A model generated the notes under the pieces. That model saw only the letters and a list, made by a program, of their open reading frames with translations. It was not told the origin of the DNA and ran no database searches. 49,168 nucleotides of DNA from Escherichia phage 4A7, in sequence record NC_049946.1; one strand, given 5' to 3'. How positions within the stretch are numbered: the stretch's first letter is position 1; every line of letters starts with the position of its first letter. This document shows, in pieces, positions 24,993 to 42,732 of this stretch. Both the position numbers and the translations under genes were made by a program.

Positions 24993-25846
24993 GAGCGATC
25001 CTCCAGCGCCTTATGCGCACGCCGACGATTTGCCAAAAGCCCATGGGTGGGCGCAAAGACAAATGCTAAAAGAAACAGCAGTGTCTGCGCCACCACGATG
25101 ATTCCACCTGTCGCGCCGTCCAGAAAGTAACTGACCCACGCGCCGAGGAAACTGGTTACACTGCCAATAGTTACAGCAATCATGAGCAGGCGGGGAAAAC
25201 GATCGGTTAACAACCATGCTGTTGCACCGGGAGTCACCACCAGACAGATCACCAGAAAGGCACCAACCGTTTGCAGCGCCGCAACGGTCGAAACCGACAG
25301 CAGGGTGAAGAAGAGGAGTTTTAATCTGCCCGGATGCAATCCAATAGCACGGGCGTGATTCTCGTCGAAAAAGGTCACCATAAGATCTTTCCATTTGAAA
25401 AAAAGCACGATGATCGAGAGAATGCCAATGATAGTGAGTTGCAGGATATCCGCCGGATCGATTGCCAGAATATTGCCCAGGACGATGGTCTGAATGTTCA
25501 CAGATGTCGGGTTCAATGACACCATAAACAGCCCCAGGCCAAAAAAGGACGAGAAGATCAGACCGATGATGGCATCTTCTTTTAAGCGGGTGCGTTGGTT
25601 AAGAAACAGCATGCTGCCCGCAGCCAGTCCGCCGGAAAAGAAGGCTCCCAGAGAAAACGGAAGCCCCAGCATATATGCCCCCGCAACACCCGGGACAATA
25701 GAGTGCGACAACGCATCGCCAATCAGCGACCAGCCTTTTAGCATCAGATAGCATGACAGGAAAGCGCAGAGACCGCCGACCATCGCCGAGACCCACATCG
25801 CATTGAGCATATATTCATAGCTGAAGGGTTCCAGTAGCACGTTCAT
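24989..25846 (-). CDS. sitC: Mn/Fe ABC transporter permease SitC
   Basis: 285-aa polytopic membrane protein, paralogous to sitD; overlaps sitB. Confidence 0.85.
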
Positions 25847-26670
25847 CTTTCTTCCCTCTGCACCGCTGACGGTCGATGAGCCACAAAAGGGCGTTCATCG
25901 TCAGTAATAATGCTTTCTTCCGAGCCGTTAAGTGTGACATGGCGCAGTACGCCGCTAAAAGCCAGCTCTAGGTTCTCGGCTGTAAAAGTGGTGTCTGTCG
26001 GCCCGCTTGCCAGGACGGTGCCTTTGACCATGACCGTATAATCGCAAAATGTCGTGACGGATCCGAGATTGTGTGTTGAGACAAGCATCGTTTTGCCTTC
26101 CGCGCGTAACTCCCTCAACAGGCTGATGATTTTGGCTTCGGTTTTCACATCAACGCCAGTAAAAGGTTCATCCAGCAGGATCACATCACCCTGCTGTGCA
26201 ATCGCTCTCGCCAGAAAGACGCGTTTCTTTTGTCCACCGGAAAGCTCGCCGATTTGTCGATGGCGAAAATTCACCATATCGACACGTTCCAGCGCATCGG
26301 TGACAATTTGACGATCCCTCTTTTTGGCGATACGCAACATACCCATATGCCCATAGCGGCCCATCATCACCACATCTTCCACCAGTACAGGAAATGACCA
26401 GTCAACCTCTTCTGACTGAGGGACGTAGGCAACCAGGTTTTTCTGTAACGCCTGTCGCGTGGGAATACCCAGAACAGATATCTTTCCGCTGGTCAGACGC
26501 ACAAATCCCATAATCGCTTTAAACAACGTCGATTTTCCGGAACCGTTTACCCCAACCAGAGCGGCAATAGATCCACTTGGTACTGTGAAGGATGCATCGC
26601 GCAGTGCTGTGTGCCCGTTATGCCAGGTGACAGCAACATCATTAACGACAATGCCTGCAGATTGCATCAT
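25843..26670 (-). CDS. sitB: Mn/Fe ABC transporter ATP-binding protein SitB
   Basis: Walker [13 protein letters not shown] signature LSGGQKKR, Walker B ILLDEP. Confidence 0.9.
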
Positions 26671-27584
26671 TATTTCTCCCTTTTCCCGGCTTTAATTCCC
26701 TGTACCAGCGTACTGGTAGTAACCTTAAGAAGGTCGATATACGTCGGTACCGGGCCGTTTTCTGTGCTCAGGGAATCGACATAGAGCACACCGCCGTAGT
26801 GTGCGCCGGTTTCACGCGCAACCTGACGCGCTGGTTTATCGGAAATCGTACTCTCGCTAAAGACTGCCGGGATATGATTTTTCTTAACTATATCAACAAC
26901 CTTACGTACCTGCTGCGGTGTTCCTTGTTGATCGGCATTAATCGGCCACAGATAAAGCTCTTTTAGCCCCAAATCGCGTGCGAGATAAGAAAAAGCCCCT
27001 TCACTGGTGACCATCCATCGCTGATTCTCAGGGAGTTCCGTAATCTGCTTACGCAGGGGGGCAAGGGTTTGGGTAATCTTGGCTTTATAAGTATCGGCAT
27101 TGCGTTGGTAGGTTTGTGCATTTGCCGGATCGTATTTTATCAACGCATCACGAATATTATCGACGTAAATCAGAGCATTATCTGGCGACATCCATGCATG
27201 GGGGTTAGGTTTGCCCTCATAGGGTCCTTCGGTGATCCCTACAGGCGTCACACCCGAAGAGACAATTACTTCTGGAACCCCATTGAGATGCTGGTAAAAG
27301 CGTTGGAACCACAATTCCAGATTCATACCATTGGCGAGAATCAGTTGTGCCCCCTGCGCACGTTTAATATCGCCAGGGGTAGGCTGATACTCATGAATTT
27401 CTGCACCAGGCTTGGTTATGGATGAGACTTCTGCAGCATCTCCCGCCACGTTTTTGGCCATATCCGCGATGATGGTAAATGTTGTAATGACCTTAAATTT
27501 TTCAGTTGCACTTGCCTGAAATGCGATCGAGCAGGTGAGTGCGAGGCCCCCCAAGAGCATGGTTACTTTTTTTATTGAGCGCAT
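26670..27584 (-). CDS. sitA: periplasmic Mn/Fe-binding protein SitA
   Basis: 304 aa with signal peptide; cluster-9 (MntC/YfeA/SitA-type) solute-binding protein; first gene of the operon. Confidence 0.9.
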
Positions 27585-28017: not shown

Positions 28018-28499
28018 AAATTATATCAAGTACGAACAAACTTAGTGACAAAAGACTACGAAAAATATAAAACAATTTTAGTATTAAGTAGAGAGAAATT
28101 TCGTTCTGCTAGGACGCAGCAATAGGTTCATGAGATTCTCTGATACTTGTTACCTTAGTAAGCCTTAAATTTTTAAAAATTCTTTTACGTCCACTCCTCG
28201 CTCATAACAGGCATTAACTACATTTATCTTCATTGGCTATGCAAGTCGTAATAAAAGGTGGGACAAAACTGAGACACATAAGCTCTCACAAAGGTCTGCA
28301 AGGCCTCACATGTATTGAGATGTTAATAAAATGTAGACTTGTAATTTTGATATAAATGGTAGATAAAACCTTTCCCCAAAATAAAAACGAACGTCAATGA
28401 AATCAAATGGTTGAATAAAGTTGATTTTGGCTAATAAAAAAACAATAAAATAATTTTTATTATTAAATATCAATGACTTAAACTTAATGTTTTTATATA

Positions 28500-28664
28500 C
28501 TGCTGCGCCATATGGGTTGGACTGAAGCGGCTGACCTGATTGTTAAAGGTATGGAAGGCGCAATCAACGCCAAGACCGTAACCTATGACTTCGAACGTCT
28601 GATGGAAGGCGCTAAACTGCTGAAATGTTCAGAGTTTGGTGATGCGATCATCAAGAATATGTAA
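28500..28664 (+). other. icd: phage-borne 3' end of icd (isocitrate dehydrogenase), the core of attP
   Basis: In-frame translation [54 protein letters not shown] matches the Icd C-terminus as recalled. e14 and phage 21 integrate into icd and carry a replacement 3' end. Confidence 0.85.
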
Positions 28665-28687
28665 TCACTACATGTGTTAAATATTGA

Positions 28688-28715
28688 AACGGGCGTATAA
28701 CACGCCCGTTGTTTT
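28688..28715 (+). terminator. intrinsic terminator after the icd 3' end
   Basis: Stem AACGGGCG/CGCCCGTT with loop TATAACA, followed by GTTTT. Confidence 0.7.
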
Positions 28716-28730
28716 ATGATGATGTAAAAT

Positions 28731-28767
28731 CTTCCCCAAAACTTTCCCCAAAACCCTTCCCCAAAAC
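28731..28767. repeat. three tandem 12-bp direct repeats YTTCCCCAAAAC (candidate integrase arm-type sites, P' arm)
   Basis: CTTCCCCAAAAC at 28731, TTTCCCCAAAAC at 28743, CTTCCCCAAAAC at 28756; a fourth copy TTTCCCCAAAA lies at 28371-28381 on the other side of the icd core. Confidence 0.45.
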
Positions 28768-28777
28768 TGGCTATTTT

Positions 28778-29920
28778 CTATGCTGTTTTGATATCTACGA
28801 TAATCCAGTCTTTACCACGATCATCATTGTATCGGTCGGTCATTTTTCTGGATTTATGGCCTAACAACTTTTGCGTATCCAGACCCTGTTCCCGATATAA
28901 CCGTTCTGACAGAGATCGCTGCTCATGAAATGTGGGCGCAGTTCCTTGCTCCCATTTTATGCCACATTTTTCCCTGGCCTTTTTAAAAGCCGTTGTCAGA
29001 GTATTCGCAGAAACCTGGTCTCCTCTGTTTGCTTGAGAGGTTGTGTGACGGTAATGGACCAGATATTTACTAACAACAGCATCCCTGCACTGAGATATAA
29101 CTTCACGAAGGGTAATATTCAGAGCATCGCATTTCAGGTTAAGCGGAATAGCAAGTTTTGAACCGGTTTTTTCCTGAGTAATGTGCAACATGTCGTCCCA
29201 GATATCAGAGAATTTCAAATTGCAGATATCGCCTAAACGTTGTCCAGTGACAAGAGCAAGTAGCATCCCGCATTTTAAATAGGGCTGCCGTCTGCTTACG
29301 CTGTCAAATATTGCCTGCCATTCGGGCAGTGATAATCTTTGGCGGTTTACTCGATTTCGCGGTTGTTTTGTTGCCTGCGCTGGGTTAAATCCTGGCGGAA
29401 CATGTCCTGCGTGTTGTGCTTCTTTGAAGACGTCGATTAACACCATTCTCACGACTTGCGCCATCCTGTTATGACCTTCAGCCTTTACAGCATCAATTAT
29501 TTCGGCAATATCAAGTGCGGTAATATCCTTGAGGTGTTGCATTCCACAATGCTCACGGAAAAGACGAATGGGTTTGCCTTTTTGCCGATAGGAGTTGGGT
29601 CTTAGTTCATTATGTTGCAGCCTGTCCTCCTGGATAGAAATATATTTATCAAGCCATTCTGTCACCGTAATGTCTGAGCGCCTGCCTTTCATTCTTTCCA
29701 GACGCTCATTGACGCTTAATATTTGTCGGGTACGTTGTTCAGCAATAATGGTATTTGCTTCAGTAGCAACTTGTTTTGCTTCATTCTCATCAGTTCCTAA
29801 GCTATGAAAACGACCGGATAGTGGATGTTTGTATTGCCAATATACCTTTCCGGTTCGCTTATCTAATTTGCAATATAAATTGGGTATAGAGATTTTGTGA
29901 GATCGGGGTCTAGCAGCCAT
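28778..29920 (-). CDS. int: tyrosine integrase (lambda Int family, phage 21 / e14 IntE-like)
   Basis: 380 aa with a C-terminal catalytic domain (R...HxxR...Y, LLGHKSRKMTDRY); adjacent to the icd-containing attP and overlapped by xis. Confidence 0.9.
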   Translation of the reverse strand: MAARPRSHKISIPNLYCKLDKRTGKVYWQYKHPLSGRFHSLGTDENEAKQVATEANTIIAEQRTRQILSVNERLERMKGRRSDITVTEWLDKYISIQEDRLQHNELRPNSYRQKGKPIRLFREHCGMQHLKDITALDIAEIIDAVKAEGHNRMAQVVRMVLIDVFKEAQHAGHVPPGFNPAQATKQPRNRVNRQRLSLPEWQAIFDSVSRRQPYLKCGMLLALVTGQRLGDICNLKFSDIWDDMLHITQEKTGSKLAIPLNLKCDALNITLREVISQCRDAVVSKYLVHYRHTTSQANRGDQVSANTLTTAFKKAREKCGIKWEQGTAPTFHEQRSLSERLYREQGLDTQKLLGHKSRKMTDRYNDDRGKDWIIVDIKTA

Positions 29921-37230: not shown

Positions 37231-38160
37231 ATGGCAAACACTGCTGAGATATTCAATTTTCCAGTGCCGGATGTGGCACAAAAGGAGCCGCGCGTGGCAG
37301 ATCTCGATGATGGTTATACGCGCATTGCAAATGAGTTGCTGGAAGCTGTGATGCTGGCCGGATTAACACAGCACCAGCTTCTGGTCTTCCTGGCTGTCAT
37401 GCGCAAAACATATGGCTTTAATAAAAAACTGGATTGGGTGAGCAACGAGCAACTTTCCGAGTTGACCGGGATATTGCCGCACAAGTGTTCTGCTGCAAAA
37501 AGTGTTCTGGTAAAGCGTGGGATTTTTATTCAGAGCGGGCGGAATATCGGCATTAATAATGTGGTCAGTGAATGGTCAACATTACCCGAATCAGGTAAGA
37601 AAAATAAAGTTTACCTGAAAGAGGTAAATTTACCTGAATCAGGTAAGAAAAGTTTACCCAAATCAGGTAAAGGCGTTTACCCGAATCAGGTAAACACAAA
37701 AGACAAACTAACAAAAGACAATATAAAACCTTTTTCGTCCGAGAATTCTGACGAATCCTCTGACCAGCCAGAAAACGATCTTCCTGTGGTGAAACCGGAT
37801 GCTGCAATTCAGAGCGGCAGCAAGTGGGGGACAGCAGAAGACCTGACCGCCGCAGAGTGGATGTTTGACATGGTGAAGACCATCGCGCCATCAGCCAGAA
37901 AACCAAATTTTGCAGGGTGGGCTAACGATATCCGCCTGATGCGTGAACGTGACGGACGTAACCACCGCGACATGTGCGTGCTGTTCCGCTGGGCATGCCA
38001 GGACAACTTCTGGTCCGGTAACGTGCTGAGTCCGGCCAAACTCCGCGACAAGTGGACTCAACTCGAAATCAACCGTAACAAGCAACAGGCTGGCGTGACA
38101 GCCGGAAAATCAAAACTCGACCTGACAAACACTGACTGGATTTACGGGGTGGATTTATGA
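37231..38160 (+). CDS. O: replication initiator O
   Basis: From MANTAEIFNFP onward it resembles lambda O as recalled (VADLDDGYTRIANELLEA, LAVMRKTYGFNK, SEW); the iteron origin is embedded. ATG at 37231 follows a GGAGG RBS; the listed ORF starts at 37141. Confidence 0.8.
   Translation: MANTAEIFNFPVPDVAQKEPRVADLDDGYTRIANELLEAVMLAGLTQHQLLVFLAVMRKTYGFNKKLDWVSNEQLSELTGILPHKCSAAKSVLVKRGIFIQSGRNIGINNVVSEWSTLPESGKKNKVYLKEVNLPESGKKSLPKSGKGVYPNQVNTKDKLTKDNIKPFSSENSDESSDQPENDLPVVKPDAAIQSGSKWGTAEDLTAAEWMFDMVKTIAPSARKPNFAGWANDIRLMRERDGRNHRDMCVLFRWACQDNFWSGNVLSPAKLRDKWTQLEINRNKQQAGVTAGKSKLDLTNTDWIYGVDL
37581..37740 (+). repeat. replication origin: five iteron-like repeats TTACCYRAATCAGGTAA plus an A/T-rich tract
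   Basis: Repeats start near 37582, 37609, 37631, 37654 and 37677 (spacing 22-27 bp), each with internal dyad symmetry TTACC/GGTAA, followed by the A-rich tract 37695-37740; all lie inside O. Confidence 0.7.
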
Positions 38161-39224: not shown

Positions 39225-39557
39225 ATGAACCCTTATATTTATCTTGGTGGTGCAATACTTGCAGAGGTCATTGGTACAACCTTAATGAAGTTTTCAGAAG
39301 GTTTTACACGGTTATGGCCATCTGTTGGTACAATTATTTGTTATTGTGCATCATTCTGGTTATTAGCTCAGACGCTGGCTTATATACCTACAGGGATTGC
39401 TTATGCTATCTGGTCAGGAGTCGGTATTGTCCTGATTAGCTTACTATCATGGGGATTTTTCGGCCAACGGTTGGACCTGCCAGCCATTATAGGCATGATG
39501 TTGATTTGTGCCGGTGTGTTGGTTATTAATTTATTGTCACGAAGCACACCACATTAA
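39225..39557 (+). CDS. emrE: small multidrug resistance efflux transporter EmrE
   Basis: 110 aa, matches E. coli EmrE as recalled (MNPYIYLGGAILAEVIGTTLMKFSEGFTRLWPSVGTIICYCASFWLLAQTLAYIPTGIAYAIWSGVGIVLISLLSWGFFGQRLDLPAIIGMMLICAGVL...); emrE is DLP12-associated in K-12. Confidence 0.9.
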   Translation: MNPYIYLGGAILAEVIGTTLMKFSEGFTRLWPSVGTIICYCASFWLLAQTLAYIPTGIAYAIWSGVGIVLISLLSWGFFGQRLDLPAIIGMMLICAGVLVINLLSRSTPH

Positions 39558-39566
39558 AAATAATTT
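39552..39566. repeat. 15-bp direct repeat CATTAAAAATAATTT, left copy (overlaps the emrE stop)
   Basis: Identical 15-mer recurs at 41625-41639; the two copies bracket the ybcK segment. Confidence 0.5.
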
Positions 39567-39812
39567 ATTTTTAAACGACTAAAATATGGAGGTTCGTATA
39601 TTTGTATGGGCCTCGTTTTATGCTTTTTGTTAATGTCTTTAGTTTTTATTCATTCTTTTGATCTTTCAAGACCATGGTGTAAGAAAATTGCAATACGATT
39701 ATTGTTGTATATTCAAGATAATGTGACCTTAATTGTCTTTTTAAATAAAAATTAAACAAAAATCATATCTCACCACTAAGGTTTATAAAAGCATACTTTA
39801 GCAGGTGTCACC

Positions 39813-41339
39813 ATGAAAAAAGCCATAGCATATATGCGATTTTCATCACCAGGTCAGATGTCTGGTGATTCATTAAACCGCCAGAGAAGGCTTATTACTG
39901 AATGGCTAAAGGTAAATAGTGATTATTACCTTGATACCGTAACGTATGAAGATTTGGGGTTAAGCGCATTCAATGGAAAGCATGCACAATCAGGAGCTTT
40001 TTCGGAATTTTTAGATGCTATAGAACATGGTTACATATTGCCAGGGACTACATTGTTAGTTGAAAGTCTGGACAGACTTTCAAGAGAAAAAGTCGGTGAA
40101 GCGATTGAGCGTCTGAAATTGATTTTGAATCACGGTATTGATGTTATAACTCTTTGCGATAATACAGTCTATAATATAGACTCATTGAATGAGCCATATT
40201 CATTAATAAAAGCCATACTTATAGCACAAAGGGCAAATGAAGAAAGCGAGATAAAGTCAAGTCGGGTTAAATTATCATGGAAGAAAAAACGGCAGGATGC
40301 ACTGGAATCAGGCACGATTATGACGGCGTCTTGTCCGAGATGGCTCTCATTGGATGACAAAAGAACAGCTTTTATTCCAGACCCCGACAGGGTGAAAACG
40401 ATTGAGCTAATTTTTAAACTCAGGATGGAAAGGCGATCATTGAATGCAATAGCTAAGTATTTAAATGATCATGCTGTAAAAAATTTTTCAGGAAAAGAAA
40501 GTGCATGGGGGCCTTCTGTAATTGAAAAATTATTAGCGAATAAAGCTCTGATAGGTATATGCGTACCTTCATATCGTGCAAGAGGGAAAGGGATAAGTGA
40601 AATCGCTGGCTATTATCCCAGAGTCATATCAGATGATTTGTTTTACGCTGTACAGGAAATTCGGTTGGCACCTTTTGGTATTAGCAATAGTAGCAAGAAT
40701 CCTATGCTAATAAATCTACTTCGAACAGTTATGAAGTGTGAGGCTTGTGGTAATACCATGATTGTTCATGCGGTATCTGGACGTTTGCATGGCTATTATG
40801 TTTGTCCGATGAGAAGATTACATCGATGTGACAGGCCATCAATAAAAAGAGATTTGGTTGATTATAATATCATTAATGAATTGCTTTTTAATTGTAGCAA
40901 AATTCAACCAGTTGAAAACAAGAAAGATGCTAATGAAACTTTAGAGTTAAAAATTATTGAGCTTCAGATGAAAATTAATAATTTAATCGTTGCATTGTCT
41001 GTCGCGCCTGAAGTTACCGCTATAGCAGAGAAAATAAGACTATTAGATAAGGAATTACGAAGGGCTTCGGTATCATTAAAAACTTTGAAGAGTAAAGGGG
41101 TGAGTTCACTTGGTGATTTTCATGCTATTGATTTAACCAGTAAAAATGGGCGAGAGCTATGTCGTACACTTGCCTATAAAATATTCGAAAAAATTATAAT
41201 TAATACAGATAATAAAACCTGTGATATCTATTTTATGAATGGCATTGTTTTTAAACACTATCCTTTAATGAAAGTAATATCCGCCCAGCAGGCGATAAGT
41301 ACTCTTAAATATATGGTTGATGGTGAGGTTTATTTTTGA
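39813..41339 (+). CDS. ybcK: large serine recombinase (YbcK-like)
   Basis: 508 aa; N-terminal resolvase/invertase catalytic domain (AIAYMRFSSPGQ...SLNRQ), central recombinase domain, Cys-rich zinc ribbon (CEACGN...CPMRRLHRC) and C-terminal coiled coil; AT-rich. Confidence 0.85.
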   Translation: MKKAIAYMRFSSPGQMSGDSLNRQRRLITEWLKVNSDYYLDTVTYEDLGLSAFNGKHAQSGAFSEFLDAIEHGYILPGTTLLVESLDRLSREKVGEAIERLKLILNHGIDVITLCDNTVYNIDSLNEPYSLIKAILIAQRANEESEIKSSRVKLSWKKKRQDALESGTIMTASCPRWLSLDDKRTAFIPDPDRVKTIELIFKLRMERRSLNAIAKYLNDHAVKNFSGKESAWGPSVIEKLLANKALIGICVPSYRARGKGISEIAGYYPRVISDDLFYAVQEIRLAPFGISNSSKNPMLINLLRTVMKCEACGNTMIVHAVSGRLHGYYVCPMRRLHRCDRPSIKRDLVDYNIINELLFNCSKIQPVENKKDANETLELKIIELQMKINNLIVALSVAPEVTAIAEKIRLLDKELRRASVSLKTLKSKGVSSLGDFHAIDLTSKNGRELCRTLAYKIFEKIIINTDNKTCDIYFMNGIVFKHYPLMKVISAQQAISTLKYMVDGEVYF

Positions 41340-41624
41340 GTAATAATCACTTTTTCAACCGTGCTATGGTATGAAAGTAAAGTAACTAATATGATATTAA
41401 CTATCTTGAACGAAGCGCCCTGAGCTATAGTTTTACTATAGGCACTGTCACTGGATGTTGGCATTCTTGCTCTAGTAGCTCAACAATACCCAATCACAAA
41501 ACAATTCACTGATAACAAACTTTGTGCACGTGCTTGGTTATGGCGAACAGGTGATGTTAACCTCTTGCCAGAATGCCACTCCACTTCATTAAGTATCTGA
41601 GCACCGAGAGGCTGGTCACGCCCC

Positions 41625-41639
41625 CATTAAAAATAATTT
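41625..41639. repeat. 15-bp direct repeat CATTAAAAATAATTT, right copy
   Basis: Perfect match to 39552-39566. Confidence 0.5.
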
Positions 41640-41663
41640 CTTTTGAATCGAGTGAAATAGGTT

Positions 41664-41690
41664 AGCCCGCATAAGTGCGGGCTGCTTTTT
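41664..41690 (+). terminator. intrinsic terminator between convergent ybcK-side and esterase genes
   Basis: Stem AGCCCGC/GCGGGCT with loop ATAAG, followed by GCTTTTT. Confidence 0.55.
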
Positions 41691-42732
41691 ACAGGTCAGC
41701 GTTTGTTTTTTGTTGTTGGGTAGCGGTTTTTATGGGGGTTCCCAGGTTTTTAGTAAACCACTCAACAACTCTGTTTATAATAATTGGCTGATACCATGTA
41801 TTATCGCCATGCTCGGCCCCTTCTACCAGCACGTACTCAGCGTTATCACCGTTCTTCTTCAACATCCTGAATAGTTTGGCGCTTTGCTCAGGTGAAACCA
41901 GAGTGTCTTTGCTACCATGCATAATAAGAAATGGGGGTTTTACTCCTTTCATATGTCCGATTGGACTGGCGTTTAGCGCTTTTTCTTTTGACGCTGTGAT
42001 GGGGGCTCCCGCAAAATTTCTGAATGCAGGGCCATTGATCATTAAGGCTTCGGTTACGGCAGGAGAGCGATGAACCTCCTGCACTGATTCAGGGAACCCC
42101 TCGCCAATATTCAACAAGTCAGAAATCCCATAAAGTGTGGCAACTGCCTGAACATCTGAGGATTGCTGAAGAAAGTCACCTTTATCAAAGGTTTTGTCAC
42201 CATTTGTAGTTCCCATCATCTGGGCAAGCCATCCACCGGCAGAGTCACCCAGAACTCCGATTCTTTGAGGATCAATCCCATAATTGCTGGCATGCTCTCT
42301 CAGGTAACGTATTGCAGCTTTTCCATCCTCAACTGGTGCTGGAAATGTATCAGGAATTGTTCTGTATTCTACAGCGGCCACAACAAAACCAGCTTCTGCC
42401 AGAGCCATTCTCATTTCAATAAATTTGTCATGTTCAGAAGACATGAATCCGCCGCCGGGATAATAAATAATGGCTGGTTTTAAATCATTTGTTCGCGGGA
42501 CAAGAACTGACATGTGAAGCTGTCTGACAGAACGAGTTCCTTTTATCTGGGAATAAACAACATCACCAATGAGATCGACCTGGTTTCTGGTCGGTGAAAC
42601 ACTAATGATATCTGCACCCGGGGTGTAACCAGGAAGATTAGTCTGGACAGGTGTTGCACAACTCCCGACCGACATGGCCATTGACATACCATACAATAGT
42701 GTTGCAGATGATAATATCTTGTTAATTTTCAT
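41689..42732 (-). CDS. alpha/beta-hydrolase fold esterase/lipase, probable lipoprotein
   Basis: 347 aa; signal peptide with lipobox-like VGSC; HSL-family motifs YYPGGGF and GDSAGG (nucleophile elbow GxSxG); C-terminal His. Confidence 0.7.
   Translation of the reverse strand: MKINKILSSATLLYGMSMAMSVGSCATPVQTNLPGYTPGADIISVSPTRNQVDLIGDVVYSQIKGTRSVRQLHMSVLVPRTNDLKPAIIYYPGGGFMSSEHDKFIEMRMALAEAGFVVAAVEYRTIPDTFPAPVEDGKAAIRYLREHASNYGIDPQRIGVLGDSAGGWLAQMMGTTNGDKTFDKGDFLQQSSDVQAVATLYGISDLLNIGEGFPESVQEVHRSPAVTEALMINGPAFRNFAGAPITASKEKALNASPIGHMKGVKPPFLIMHGSKDTLVSPEQSAKLFRMLKKNGDNAEYVLVEGAEHGDNTWYQPIIINRVVEWFTKNLGTPIKTATQQQKTNADL

What the first reader, a model, noticed from the sequence alone, without database searches (positions are those of the whole stretch)
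39552..41639. Large serine recombinase (ybcK-like) segment bracketed by perfect 15-bp direct repeats
The 15-mer CATTAAAAATAATTT occurs at 39552-39566 (overlapping the emrE stop codon) and again at 41625-41639, flanking a ~2.07-kb AT-rich segment whose only gene is the 508-aa large serine recombinase. Direct repeats around a recombinase gene suggest a discrete inserted or excisable module (or a recombination scar) nested inside the nin region, in a phage that already has a tyrosine integrase and attP elsewhere.
Basis: seen in the sequence. Interest (0 to 1): 0.6.

Follow-up and report, generated by a model that had tools for sequence, protein, structure and literature searches.

The report
Leftover emrE tail beside phage recombinase gene
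The two 15-bp repeats around the ybcK recombinase gene are real, but the second copy is most likely the leftover tail of a second emrE gene copy from one old recombination between two related phages, an ordinary mosaic joint and not a jumping element.

Summary
The 15-mer CATTAAAAATAATTT is at 39552 and 41625 exactly as reported. It is not chance (6 of 5000 composition-matched simulations). The match extends to 38 nt (32/38), and a terminator hairpin follows each copy at the same distance. The left copy is the emrE stop codon plus its 3' UTR, contiguous with ylcJ-ybcK in every ybcK-bearing E. coli phage. The right copy is a gene-less emrE tail with its terminator, fused through 5 filler bases (GCCCC) to a P22AR-C gene cut at codon 58; that gene is intact in relatives (strain G3, phage Turner). 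The predicted empty site (ren-emrE-core-esterase, one copy) exists in 8 sequences. All 8 belong to a divergent lineage with a private emrE allele. All ~190 occupied copies share one identical joint. Other ybcK arrangements (K-12, O157, G3, Turner) and distant homologs have no flanking repeat and different right-hand breakpoints. No circle or tandem joint was found. YbcK is an intact large serine recombinase under strong purifying selection (dN/dS ~0.07); its own target remains unknown.

The parts
39225..39557 (+). emrE (SMR multidrug efflux gene), a moron downstream of ren
   Evidence: ORF. Annotated emrE in identical records.
39549..39586 (+). Left repeat copy. The exact 15-mer core is 39552-39566. 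It comprises the last emrE codons, the stop codon and the first ~30 nt of the emrE 3' UTR (UTR1 allele).
   Evidence: Contiguous with emrE in all ybcK-bearing phages.
39589..39614 (+). Terminator-like hairpin plus T-run of emrE (UTR1 allele), 37 nt after the start of the core
   Evidence: 11-pair stem followed by GTTTTATG. fold: -17.1 kcal/mol, z = -3.4.
39606..39755 (+). ylcJ, a 49-aa small protein gene
   Evidence: Pfam PF23688 YlcJ, E=1e-28. Annotated ylcJ in BL21 and G3.
39813..41339 (+). ybcK, an intact 508-aa large serine recombinase
   Evidence: Pfam Resolvase, Recombinase and Zn_ribbon_recom. PHROG 95 integrase, E=6e-120. dN/dS 0.06-0.08.
41340..41619 (+). G3-like DNA downstream of ybcK. 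It ends in a P22AR-C-domain pseudogene fragment (41451-41619) with the start codon changed ATG>CTG, a 5-nt deletion, in-frame stops, and truncation at codon 58 of 107.
   Evidence: Collinear with G3 up to 41619. Alignment and translations. The G3 gene is PF10548, E=1.5e-13.
41620..41624 (.). The novel joint: 5 nt (GCCCC) that match neither parent arrangement cleanly
   Evidence: Identical in 14 IMG/VR contigs and about 172 complete genomes.
41622..41659 (+). Right repeat copy. The exact 15-mer core is 41625-41639. It is a gene-less relic of an emrE tail plus its 3' UTR (UTR2 allele).
   Evidence: In F467-type phages the same sequence follows an intact emrE.
41663..41684 (+). Terminator-like hairpin plus T-run (UTR2 allele), 38 nt after the start of the core. 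It lies between the emrE relic and the convergent esterase gene.
   Evidence: 9-pair stem, 6 GC pairs, followed by CTTTTT. fold: z = -3.1.
41689..42732 (-). alpha/beta-hydrolase (esterase) moron, the right-hand neighbour supplied by the second parent
   Evidence: Pfam BD-FAE E=5e-45. PHROG esterase. The same cassette is in ~700 genomes with other left neighbours.

Best explanation
The repeat pair is the scar of one historical unequal crossover between two related lambdoid phages. Parent A (as in strain G3 and phage Turner) carried ren-emrE-UTR1/terminator-ylcJ-ybcK-P22AR-C-hyp-ybcN. Parent B (as in isolate F467) carried ren-emrE-UTR2/terminator-esterase-ybcN. A non-homologous join linked codon 58 of the P22AR-C gene of A to the last codon of emrE in B, with 5 filler bases (GCCCC). 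The product keeps the whole emrE-ybcK block of A. It is followed by a stump of B's emrE (CAT TAA plus its 3' UTR and terminator) and then B's esterase. The 'direct repeat' is therefore the part of the emrE 3' end present twice. Its left limit is the joint, and its right limit of perfect identity is where the two 3'-UTR alleles diverge. The sequence contiguities, the gene truncation and the single origin of the joint are shown. The order of events, the non-homologous mechanism and the enzyme responsible are inferred. YbcK is a functional large serine recombinase lying on the same strand as O, P and ren, so it would be read with the early rightward operon (inferred from gene order). Nothing indicates that it acts on these repeats.
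For: (1) F467-type phages have emrE-core-UTR2-esterase with one core copy; their left flank matches the left of L and their right flank matches the right of R. (2) The bases after the core form an allelic series of one 3' UTR: G3, O157 and esterase types. Each leads to a terminator hairpin 37-38 nt from the core, so L is continuous ancestral DNA and not an insertion junction. (3) The window is collinear with G3 up to 41619, inside a P22AR-C gene that is intact in G3 and Turner but truncated and decayed here. (4) About 172 complete genomes, 14 IMG/VR contigs and 6 phage records share the identical joint GGTCACGCCCC|CATT, which indicates one event. (5) All 8 empty sites share a private emrE allele, and their ren is 93% identical to the window against 98.4% for G3/O157. 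(6) ybcK in K-12, O157, G3 and Turner has different right breakpoints (41348, 41405, 41557, 41619) and no flanking repeat of 11 bp or more. The same holds for homologs in Atlantibacter, Pantoea, Yersinia and Erwinia. (7) No circle or tandem joint was found in IMG/VR or metagenome assemblies.
Against: The actual parents are not in hand; G3 and F467 are only representatives at 94-98% identity. The 5 filler bases are unexplained. Read in the emrE frame, the R copy gives S-R-P-H-stop against emrE's S-R-S-T-P-H-stop, so the joint may lie a few codons further left in an unsampled emrE allele. A ~2.08-kb ybcK block is also present or absent between emrE and ybcL (K-12 versus the fliE-locus island), with its left limit at the same bases. 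That recurrence at the end of the core is not explained by the scar model alone. A core lying 246 bp upstream of a serine recombinase gene resembles the usual att-int layout. Assemblies are a weak test for rare excised circles.
Confidence: 0.8

Rival explanations
1. The 2,073-bp segment is a minimal integrative element. YbcK inserted a circle (attP = P22AR'-GCCCC-core-UTR1) into an attB at the emrE stop codon of an F467-like phage. L and R are attL and attR sharing a 15-bp core, and the segment can still excise.
For: An empty site with one core copy exists. The core lies 246 bp upstream of an intact, selected serine recombinase gene. The two right arms (UTR1 and UTR2) resemble each other, as att half-sites can. 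Relatives of YbcK sit at prophage ends like integrases.
Against: The supposed left end is contiguous with emrE in every other ybcK phage and is an allele of the emrE terminator region. The supposed right end is a truncated gene that continues intact in G3 and Turner, so it is not a conserved element end. Right ends differ among lineages, and no other copy has flanking repeats. Empty sites form a divergent lineage with a private emrE allele. No circle joint was found. From general knowledge of serine integrases, they need identity only at a central dinucleotide and leave no long duplications.
Confidence: 0.07
2. The repeats arose as a scar, but they are now active substrates for recombinase-independent deletion (slipped mispairing or short-homology recombination). 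On this view the F467-type empty site is a deletion derivative of a window-type ancestor and not a parent.
For: RecA-independent deletion between short direct repeats is documented in E. coli K-12 (PMC5426353). The empty-site sequence equals exactly what a deletion between L and R would leave.
Against: The R copy needs an earlier emrE-UTR2-esterase arrangement as its source, and that is what F467 has. All 8 empty sites carry emrE and ren alleles unlike the window type. None of ~190 window-type copies has a near-identical empty sibling.
Confidence: 0.08
3. The repeat is a chance match of low-complexity AT-rich sequence.
For: The sequence is AT-rich. 10-mers bracket the gene by chance in about 46% of simulations.
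Against: An exact 15-mer arose in 6 of 5000 simulations. The match extends to 32/38 with the same downstream terminator layout. The R copy is demonstrably homologous to an emrE tail in F467-type phages.
Confidence: 0.01

Closest known systems
Mosaic (non-homologous) module joints of lambdoid phage genomes, especially in the nin region (the Hendrix/Casjens view of phage mosaicism; cited from general knowledge)
   Same: Each side of the joint is collinear with a different relative. The joint sits at or near a gene end. It leaves a truncated gene and a short duplicated stump. It is inherited identically by all descendants.
   Different: Nothing essential. The duplicated stump happens to bracket a recombinase gene, and that invites the mobile-element reading.
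DLP12 prophage emrE-ylcJ-ybcK block of E. coli K-12/BL21 and phage Perceval of LF82
   Same: The same ren-emrE-ylcJ-ybcK block at 96.5% identity (K-12 type). The region is 100% identical in Perceval, Lambda_4C10, 1W and 3W, where ybcK is already annotated as a large serine recombinase.
   Different: K-12 has ybcL-ybcM to the right of ybcK, no right-hand repeat copy and no esterase.
Large-serine-recombinase integrative elements (phiC31/Bxb1-type prophages, Tn4451 TnpX, SCCmec Ccr; cited from general knowledge)
   Same: The recombinase has the same three-domain architecture. A short shared core lies near the gene, and an empty site exists.
   Different: The ends are not conserved among copies. 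The left end is host-cassette DNA. The right end is a truncated gene. No excision polymorphism appears among close relatives.

Membership tests
Large serine recombinase (protein family) | N-terminal resolvase-type catalytic domain with the Ser nucleophile motif | tested here: met
   PF00239, E=8e-19, residues 4-161. The motifs YMRFSS and ESLDRLSRE are conserved in the 60%-identical Atlantibacter homolog.
Large serine recombinase (protein family) | Recombinase domain followed by a zinc beta-ribbon domain | tested here: met
   PF07508 E=2e-14 and PF13408 E=5e-8. PHROG 95 'integrase' E=6e-120.
Large serine recombinase (protein family) | Catalyses site-specific recombination between defined att sites | not testable with these tools
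   No experimental data were found. The literature search found ybcK only in lists of K-12 recombinases and in unrelated screens. The closest NCBIfam model, XisF, scores 46 bits against a cut-off of 375. PDB sequence search gave no hit.
Serine-recombinase-mobilised integrative or excisable element | The same two element ends in every copy | tested here: not met
   Right-hand homology ends at 41348 (K-12), 41405 (O157), 41557 (Turner type) and 41619 (G3). Only the window type has the second core.
Serine-recombinase-mobilised integrative or excisable element | Both junctions are novel relative to the empty site | tested here: not met
   The left side is a continuous emrE 3' UTR/terminator allele. 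Only the right joint is novel, and it truncates a gene.
Serine-recombinase-mobilised integrative or excisable element | Empty site in otherwise near-identical relatives (presence/absence polymorphism) | tested here: not met
   Eight empty sites exist, but all carry a private emrE allele and a ren gene only 93% identical to the window.
Serine-recombinase-mobilised integrative or excisable element | Circular or tandem junction detectable | tested here: inconclusive
   No CCC-core-A/G joint in IMG/VR and none in metagenome contigs. Assemblies rarely capture rare circles.
Lambdoid mosaic recombination joint (scar) | The sequence on each side of the joint is collinear with a different relative | tested here: met
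   G3 is collinear up to 41619. F467 is collinear from 41622 onward for 6.1 kb.
Lambdoid mosaic recombination joint (scar) | The joint interrupts a gene that is intact elsewhere, and it has a single origin | tested here: met
   P22AR-C is cut at codon 58 of 107. The joint sequence is identical in all carriers examined.
Transposon target-site duplication | A direct repeat flanking an element that has terminal inverted repeats and a transposase | tested here: not met
   No inverted repeats at the segment ends. The segment's left end is homologous to the sequence downstream of the 'target'.

The most novel reading that the evidence does not exclude
The YbcK-clade large serine recombinases are conserved and selected residents of the nin region in lambdoid phages that already have a tyrosine integrase, while their close relatives sit at prophage termini like true integrases. 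The least ordinary reading not excluded is that YbcK recognises the emrE-tail/UTR sequence as a site or pseudo-site and catalysed the right joint. The recurrent presence or absence of a ~2.08-kb ybcK block at the same bases in the K-12 versus fliE-island comparison would then be a second such event. That would make YbcK a module-shuffling or second-integration system inside phage genomes.
Probability: 0.06. Interest if true: 0.6.

Novelty: already known. Interest (0 to 1): 0.15.

Why it matters
It matters mainly as a caution. A perfect 15-bp direct repeat around a recombinase gene, even with a matching empty site, is not enough to call a mobile element. Here comparative data show an ordinary phage mosaic joint. 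The residual open question is what a strongly conserved large serine recombinase does in the nin region of phages that integrate with a tyrosine integrase. That question concerns YbcK, not the repeats.

Tried and rejected
Chance repeat: rejected. Transposon-like target duplication: rejected, since there are no terminal inverted repeats and the left end is homologous to the target's downstream sequence. A second degenerate core to the right of ybcK in K-12: only an 11-bp A/T match and a loose 9/15 resemblance judged by eye, which I do not count as evidence. Microhomology at GTCAC(G) between P22AR-C and the emrE tail as the crossover point: this would need a further 6-nt deletion and two substitutions, and no emrE allele ending S-R-P-H was found in E. 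coli genomes or IMG/VR, so it stays open. PDB sequence search gave no hit. PADLOC gave no hit for YbcK, YlcJ or the esterase. NCBIfam gave only a sub-threshold XisF match. The literature gives no function for ybcK; a ybcK mutant did not affect excision of the unrelated H47 island (PMC5426353). The Perceval paper lists emrE as an inducible moron but does not discuss ybcK (PMC9928086). Structure prediction was not run because it would not bear on the origin of the repeats.

Full report
OBSERVATION. The 15-mer CATTAAAAATAATTT occurs at 39552-39566 and 41625-41639 on the + strand. It occurs nowhere else in the window, even with two mismatches allowed (expected 0.16). Apart from the ori iterons inside gene O, it is the only exact 15-mer direct repeat within 5 kb in the window. 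In 5000 first-order Markov simulations of the local AT-rich sequence, an exact 15-mer bracketing the gene arose 6 times. The match is longer than reported: 38 nt, 32/38 identical, 39549-39586 against 41622-41659. The left copy contains the last codon and stop of emrE (CAT TAA). The enclosed segment is 35.8% GC against 49.8% for the window. It holds more than ybcK: ylcJ (39606-39755, Pfam YlcJ) and a decayed fragment of a P22AR-C-domain gene (41451-41619). The tyrosine integrase elsewhere is real (28778-29920, minus strand).

WHAT THE WINDOW IS. The region is 100% identical to E. coli DA33135 and to the sequenced temperate phages Lambda_4C10, 1W, 3W and Perceval, the LF82 prophage. In Perceval the gene is already annotated as 'Large serine recombinase, DLP12 YbcK homolog'. 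The local order is O-P-ren-emrE-ylcJ-ybcK-(P22AR' remnant)-esterase(-)-ybcN-ninE-ybcO-rusA-Q.

COMPARATIVE ANATOMY. The ren-emrE-ylcJ-ybcK block occurs in about 1,400 of 5,426 complete E. coli genomes. The DNA to the right of ybcK differs by lineage. K-12/BL21 has ybcL-ybcM, and homology with the window ends at 41348. O157 runs almost directly into ybcN, ending at 41405. Phage Turner and O91 types end at 41557. Strain G3 has an intact P22AR-C gene plus a 260-aa ORF and is collinear up to 41619. None of these carries a second copy of the core, and none has any flanking repeat of 11 bp or more. The esterase cassette occurs in about 700 genomes, mostly (ST131 type) behind an inverse-autotransporter gene. 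There the match to the window begins only at 41685 or 41708. The 65 bp holding the right repeat copy and a hairpin (41620-41684) is found in only 174 genomes.

THE EMPTY SITE. Two of those 174 genomes (F467 and Rb-50) have ren-emrE-core-esterase-ybcN with a single core copy and no ylcJ-ybcK. So do four IMG/VR contigs and two metagenome contigs.

WHY IT IS NOT AN EXCISABLE MODULE. First, the left 'junction' is not a junction. The bases after the core form an allelic series of one emrE 3' UTR: G3 type GTTTTTAAACGACTAAAATATGG, O157 type CTTTT-AAAAGACTGCAATATGG, and esterase type CTTTTGAATCGAGTGAAATA-GG. Each leads, 37-38 nt from the start of the core, into a terminator-like hairpin and T-run on the emrE strand. 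So emrE-core-UTR1-ylcJ-ybcK is continuous ancestral DNA, and the R copy is a gene-less emrE tail with its own terminator.

Second, the right joint is a truncation. The window follows G3 to 41619, which is codon 58 of a 107-codon P22AR-C gene (PF10548) that is intact in G3 and Turner. In the window that fragment has lost its start codon (ATG>CTG), carries a 5-nt deletion and in-frame stops, and is followed by 5 unmatched bases (GCCCC) and then the core.

Third, the joint has a single origin. The sequence GGTCACGCCCC|CATT is identical in all 14 IMG/VR carriers, and the segment is at least 99% identical in 170 complete genomes.

Fourth, all eight empty sites share a private emrE allele (3 SNPs seen in no ybcK-linked emrE). 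Their ren is 91-93% identical to the window, against 98.4% for G3 and O157. They are an old sister lineage, not excision products.

Fifth, no circle or tandem joint (P22AR'-GCCCC-core-UTR1) exists in IMG/VR or in metagenome contigs. This is a weak negative.

MOST LIKELY HISTORY. A G3-like phage and an F467-like phage underwent one unequal, non-homologous crossover between mid-P22AR-C in the first and the last codon of emrE in the second. The product keeps the entire emrE-ybcK block of the first parent, then a stump of the second parent's emrE (stop codon, UTR and terminator), then its esterase. The repeat is whatever part of the emrE 3' end is present twice. The contiguities, the truncation and the single origin are shown by the data. 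The direction of events and the non-homologous mechanism are inferred. Parsimony favours F467-type as a parent because the R copy needs an earlier emrE-UTR2-esterase arrangement as its source. I put this explanation at about 0.8.

THE RECOMBINASE ITSELF. YbcK has the full large-serine-recombinase architecture (Resolvase, Recombinase, zinc ribbon) and matches PHROG 95 'integrase'. It is under strong purifying selection (dN/dS 0.06-0.08 among E. coli alleles). A clade of 505-522-aa relatives at 40-60% identity exists across Enterobacterales. Their positions are of two kinds. In Atlantibacter and Pantoea the gene lies inside the nin or early-right region of lambdoid prophages, with no emrE nearby. 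In Erwinia and Yersinia it lies at the extreme prophage end after the tail-fibre genes, next to host lepA or another prophage, which is where an integrase would sit. So ybcK is a working gene whose target in E. coli phages is unknown. PADLOC, the PDB sequence search and NCBIfam gave nothing useful. The literature lists ybcK only among K-12 recombinases.

RESIDUAL DOUBTS. The filler bases are unexplained. In the emrE frame the R copy reads S-R-P-H-stop against S-R-S-T-P-H-stop, so an unsampled emrE allele might move the joint a few codons to the left. In addition, a ~2.08-kb ybcK block is present in K-12 but absent from the emrE-ybcL-ybcM island at the fliE locus of about 2,500 genomes. The left limit of that difference falls at the same bases, the end of the core, though there is no clean repeat on the right. 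This recurrence keeps a small probability (about 0.06) on a YbcK-related origin of such joints.

VERDICT. The mobile-module interpretation is not supported, and the 'recombination scar' alternative is supported. The feature is an ordinary lambdoid mosaic joint at an already annotated locus. Interest is low (0.15).

Noticed in passing
L071 8001-9548 (Erwinia), L069 8001-9530 (Yersinia), L073 8001-9518 (Pantoea), L012 6001-7530 (Atlantibacter): The YbcK clade occupies two kinds of position. In Erwinia and Yersinia it is at the prophage terminus after the tail-fibre genes, next to host lepA or a P2-like prophage, where an integrase would sit. In Pantoea, Atlantibacter and E. coli it is internal, in the nin or early-right region of lambdoid prophages. 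Its function in the internal position is unknown.
   Followed up: partly
L001 4078-5937 versus L004 5126-9062: About 2,500 E. coli genomes carry an emrE-ybcL-ybcM island between fliE and yedF, with no ybcK and no other phage genes. Relative to it, K-12 DLP12 has a ~2,083-bp UTR1-ylcJ-ybcK block replacing about 7 bp. The left limit falls exactly at the end of the 15-mer core, and there is no clean repeat on the right.
   Followed up: partly
L006 703-6048 and L007: In ST131-type prophages the same esterase cassette follows a 1,421-aa inverse-autotransporter gene (plus ISEc23 in some strains) instead of ren-emrE-ybcK. This slot of the nin region is a hotspot for exchange of morons.
   Followed up: no
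window 41451-41619: The P22AR-C fragment is decaying. Its start codon has changed ATG>CTG, it has a 5-nt deletion relative to G3 and Turner, and it has in-frame stops.
   Followed up: yes
window 37580-37694: Five copies of a ~20-nt iteron (GTTTACCCGAATCAGGTAAA-like) lie inside the O gene. This is the expected lambdoid replication origin.
   Followed up: no
window 28365-28768: Four copies of an 18-nt repeat (AAAATCTTCCCCAAAACT-like) lie just downstream of the tyrosine integrase gene (28778-29920, minus strand). They may be arm-type sites of attP.
   Followed up: no
window 25843-27584: ZnuA-like and ABC-ATPase genes lie next to the integrase. They match the sit metal-uptake morons described for phage Perceval (PMC9928086).
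   Followed up: partly
L013 (253-bp contig labelled Alkalicoccobacillus porphyridii): A 253-bp, low-coverage contig encodes the first 70 residues of YbcK at 96% identity. This is probably E. coli contamination of that assembly.
   Followed up: no
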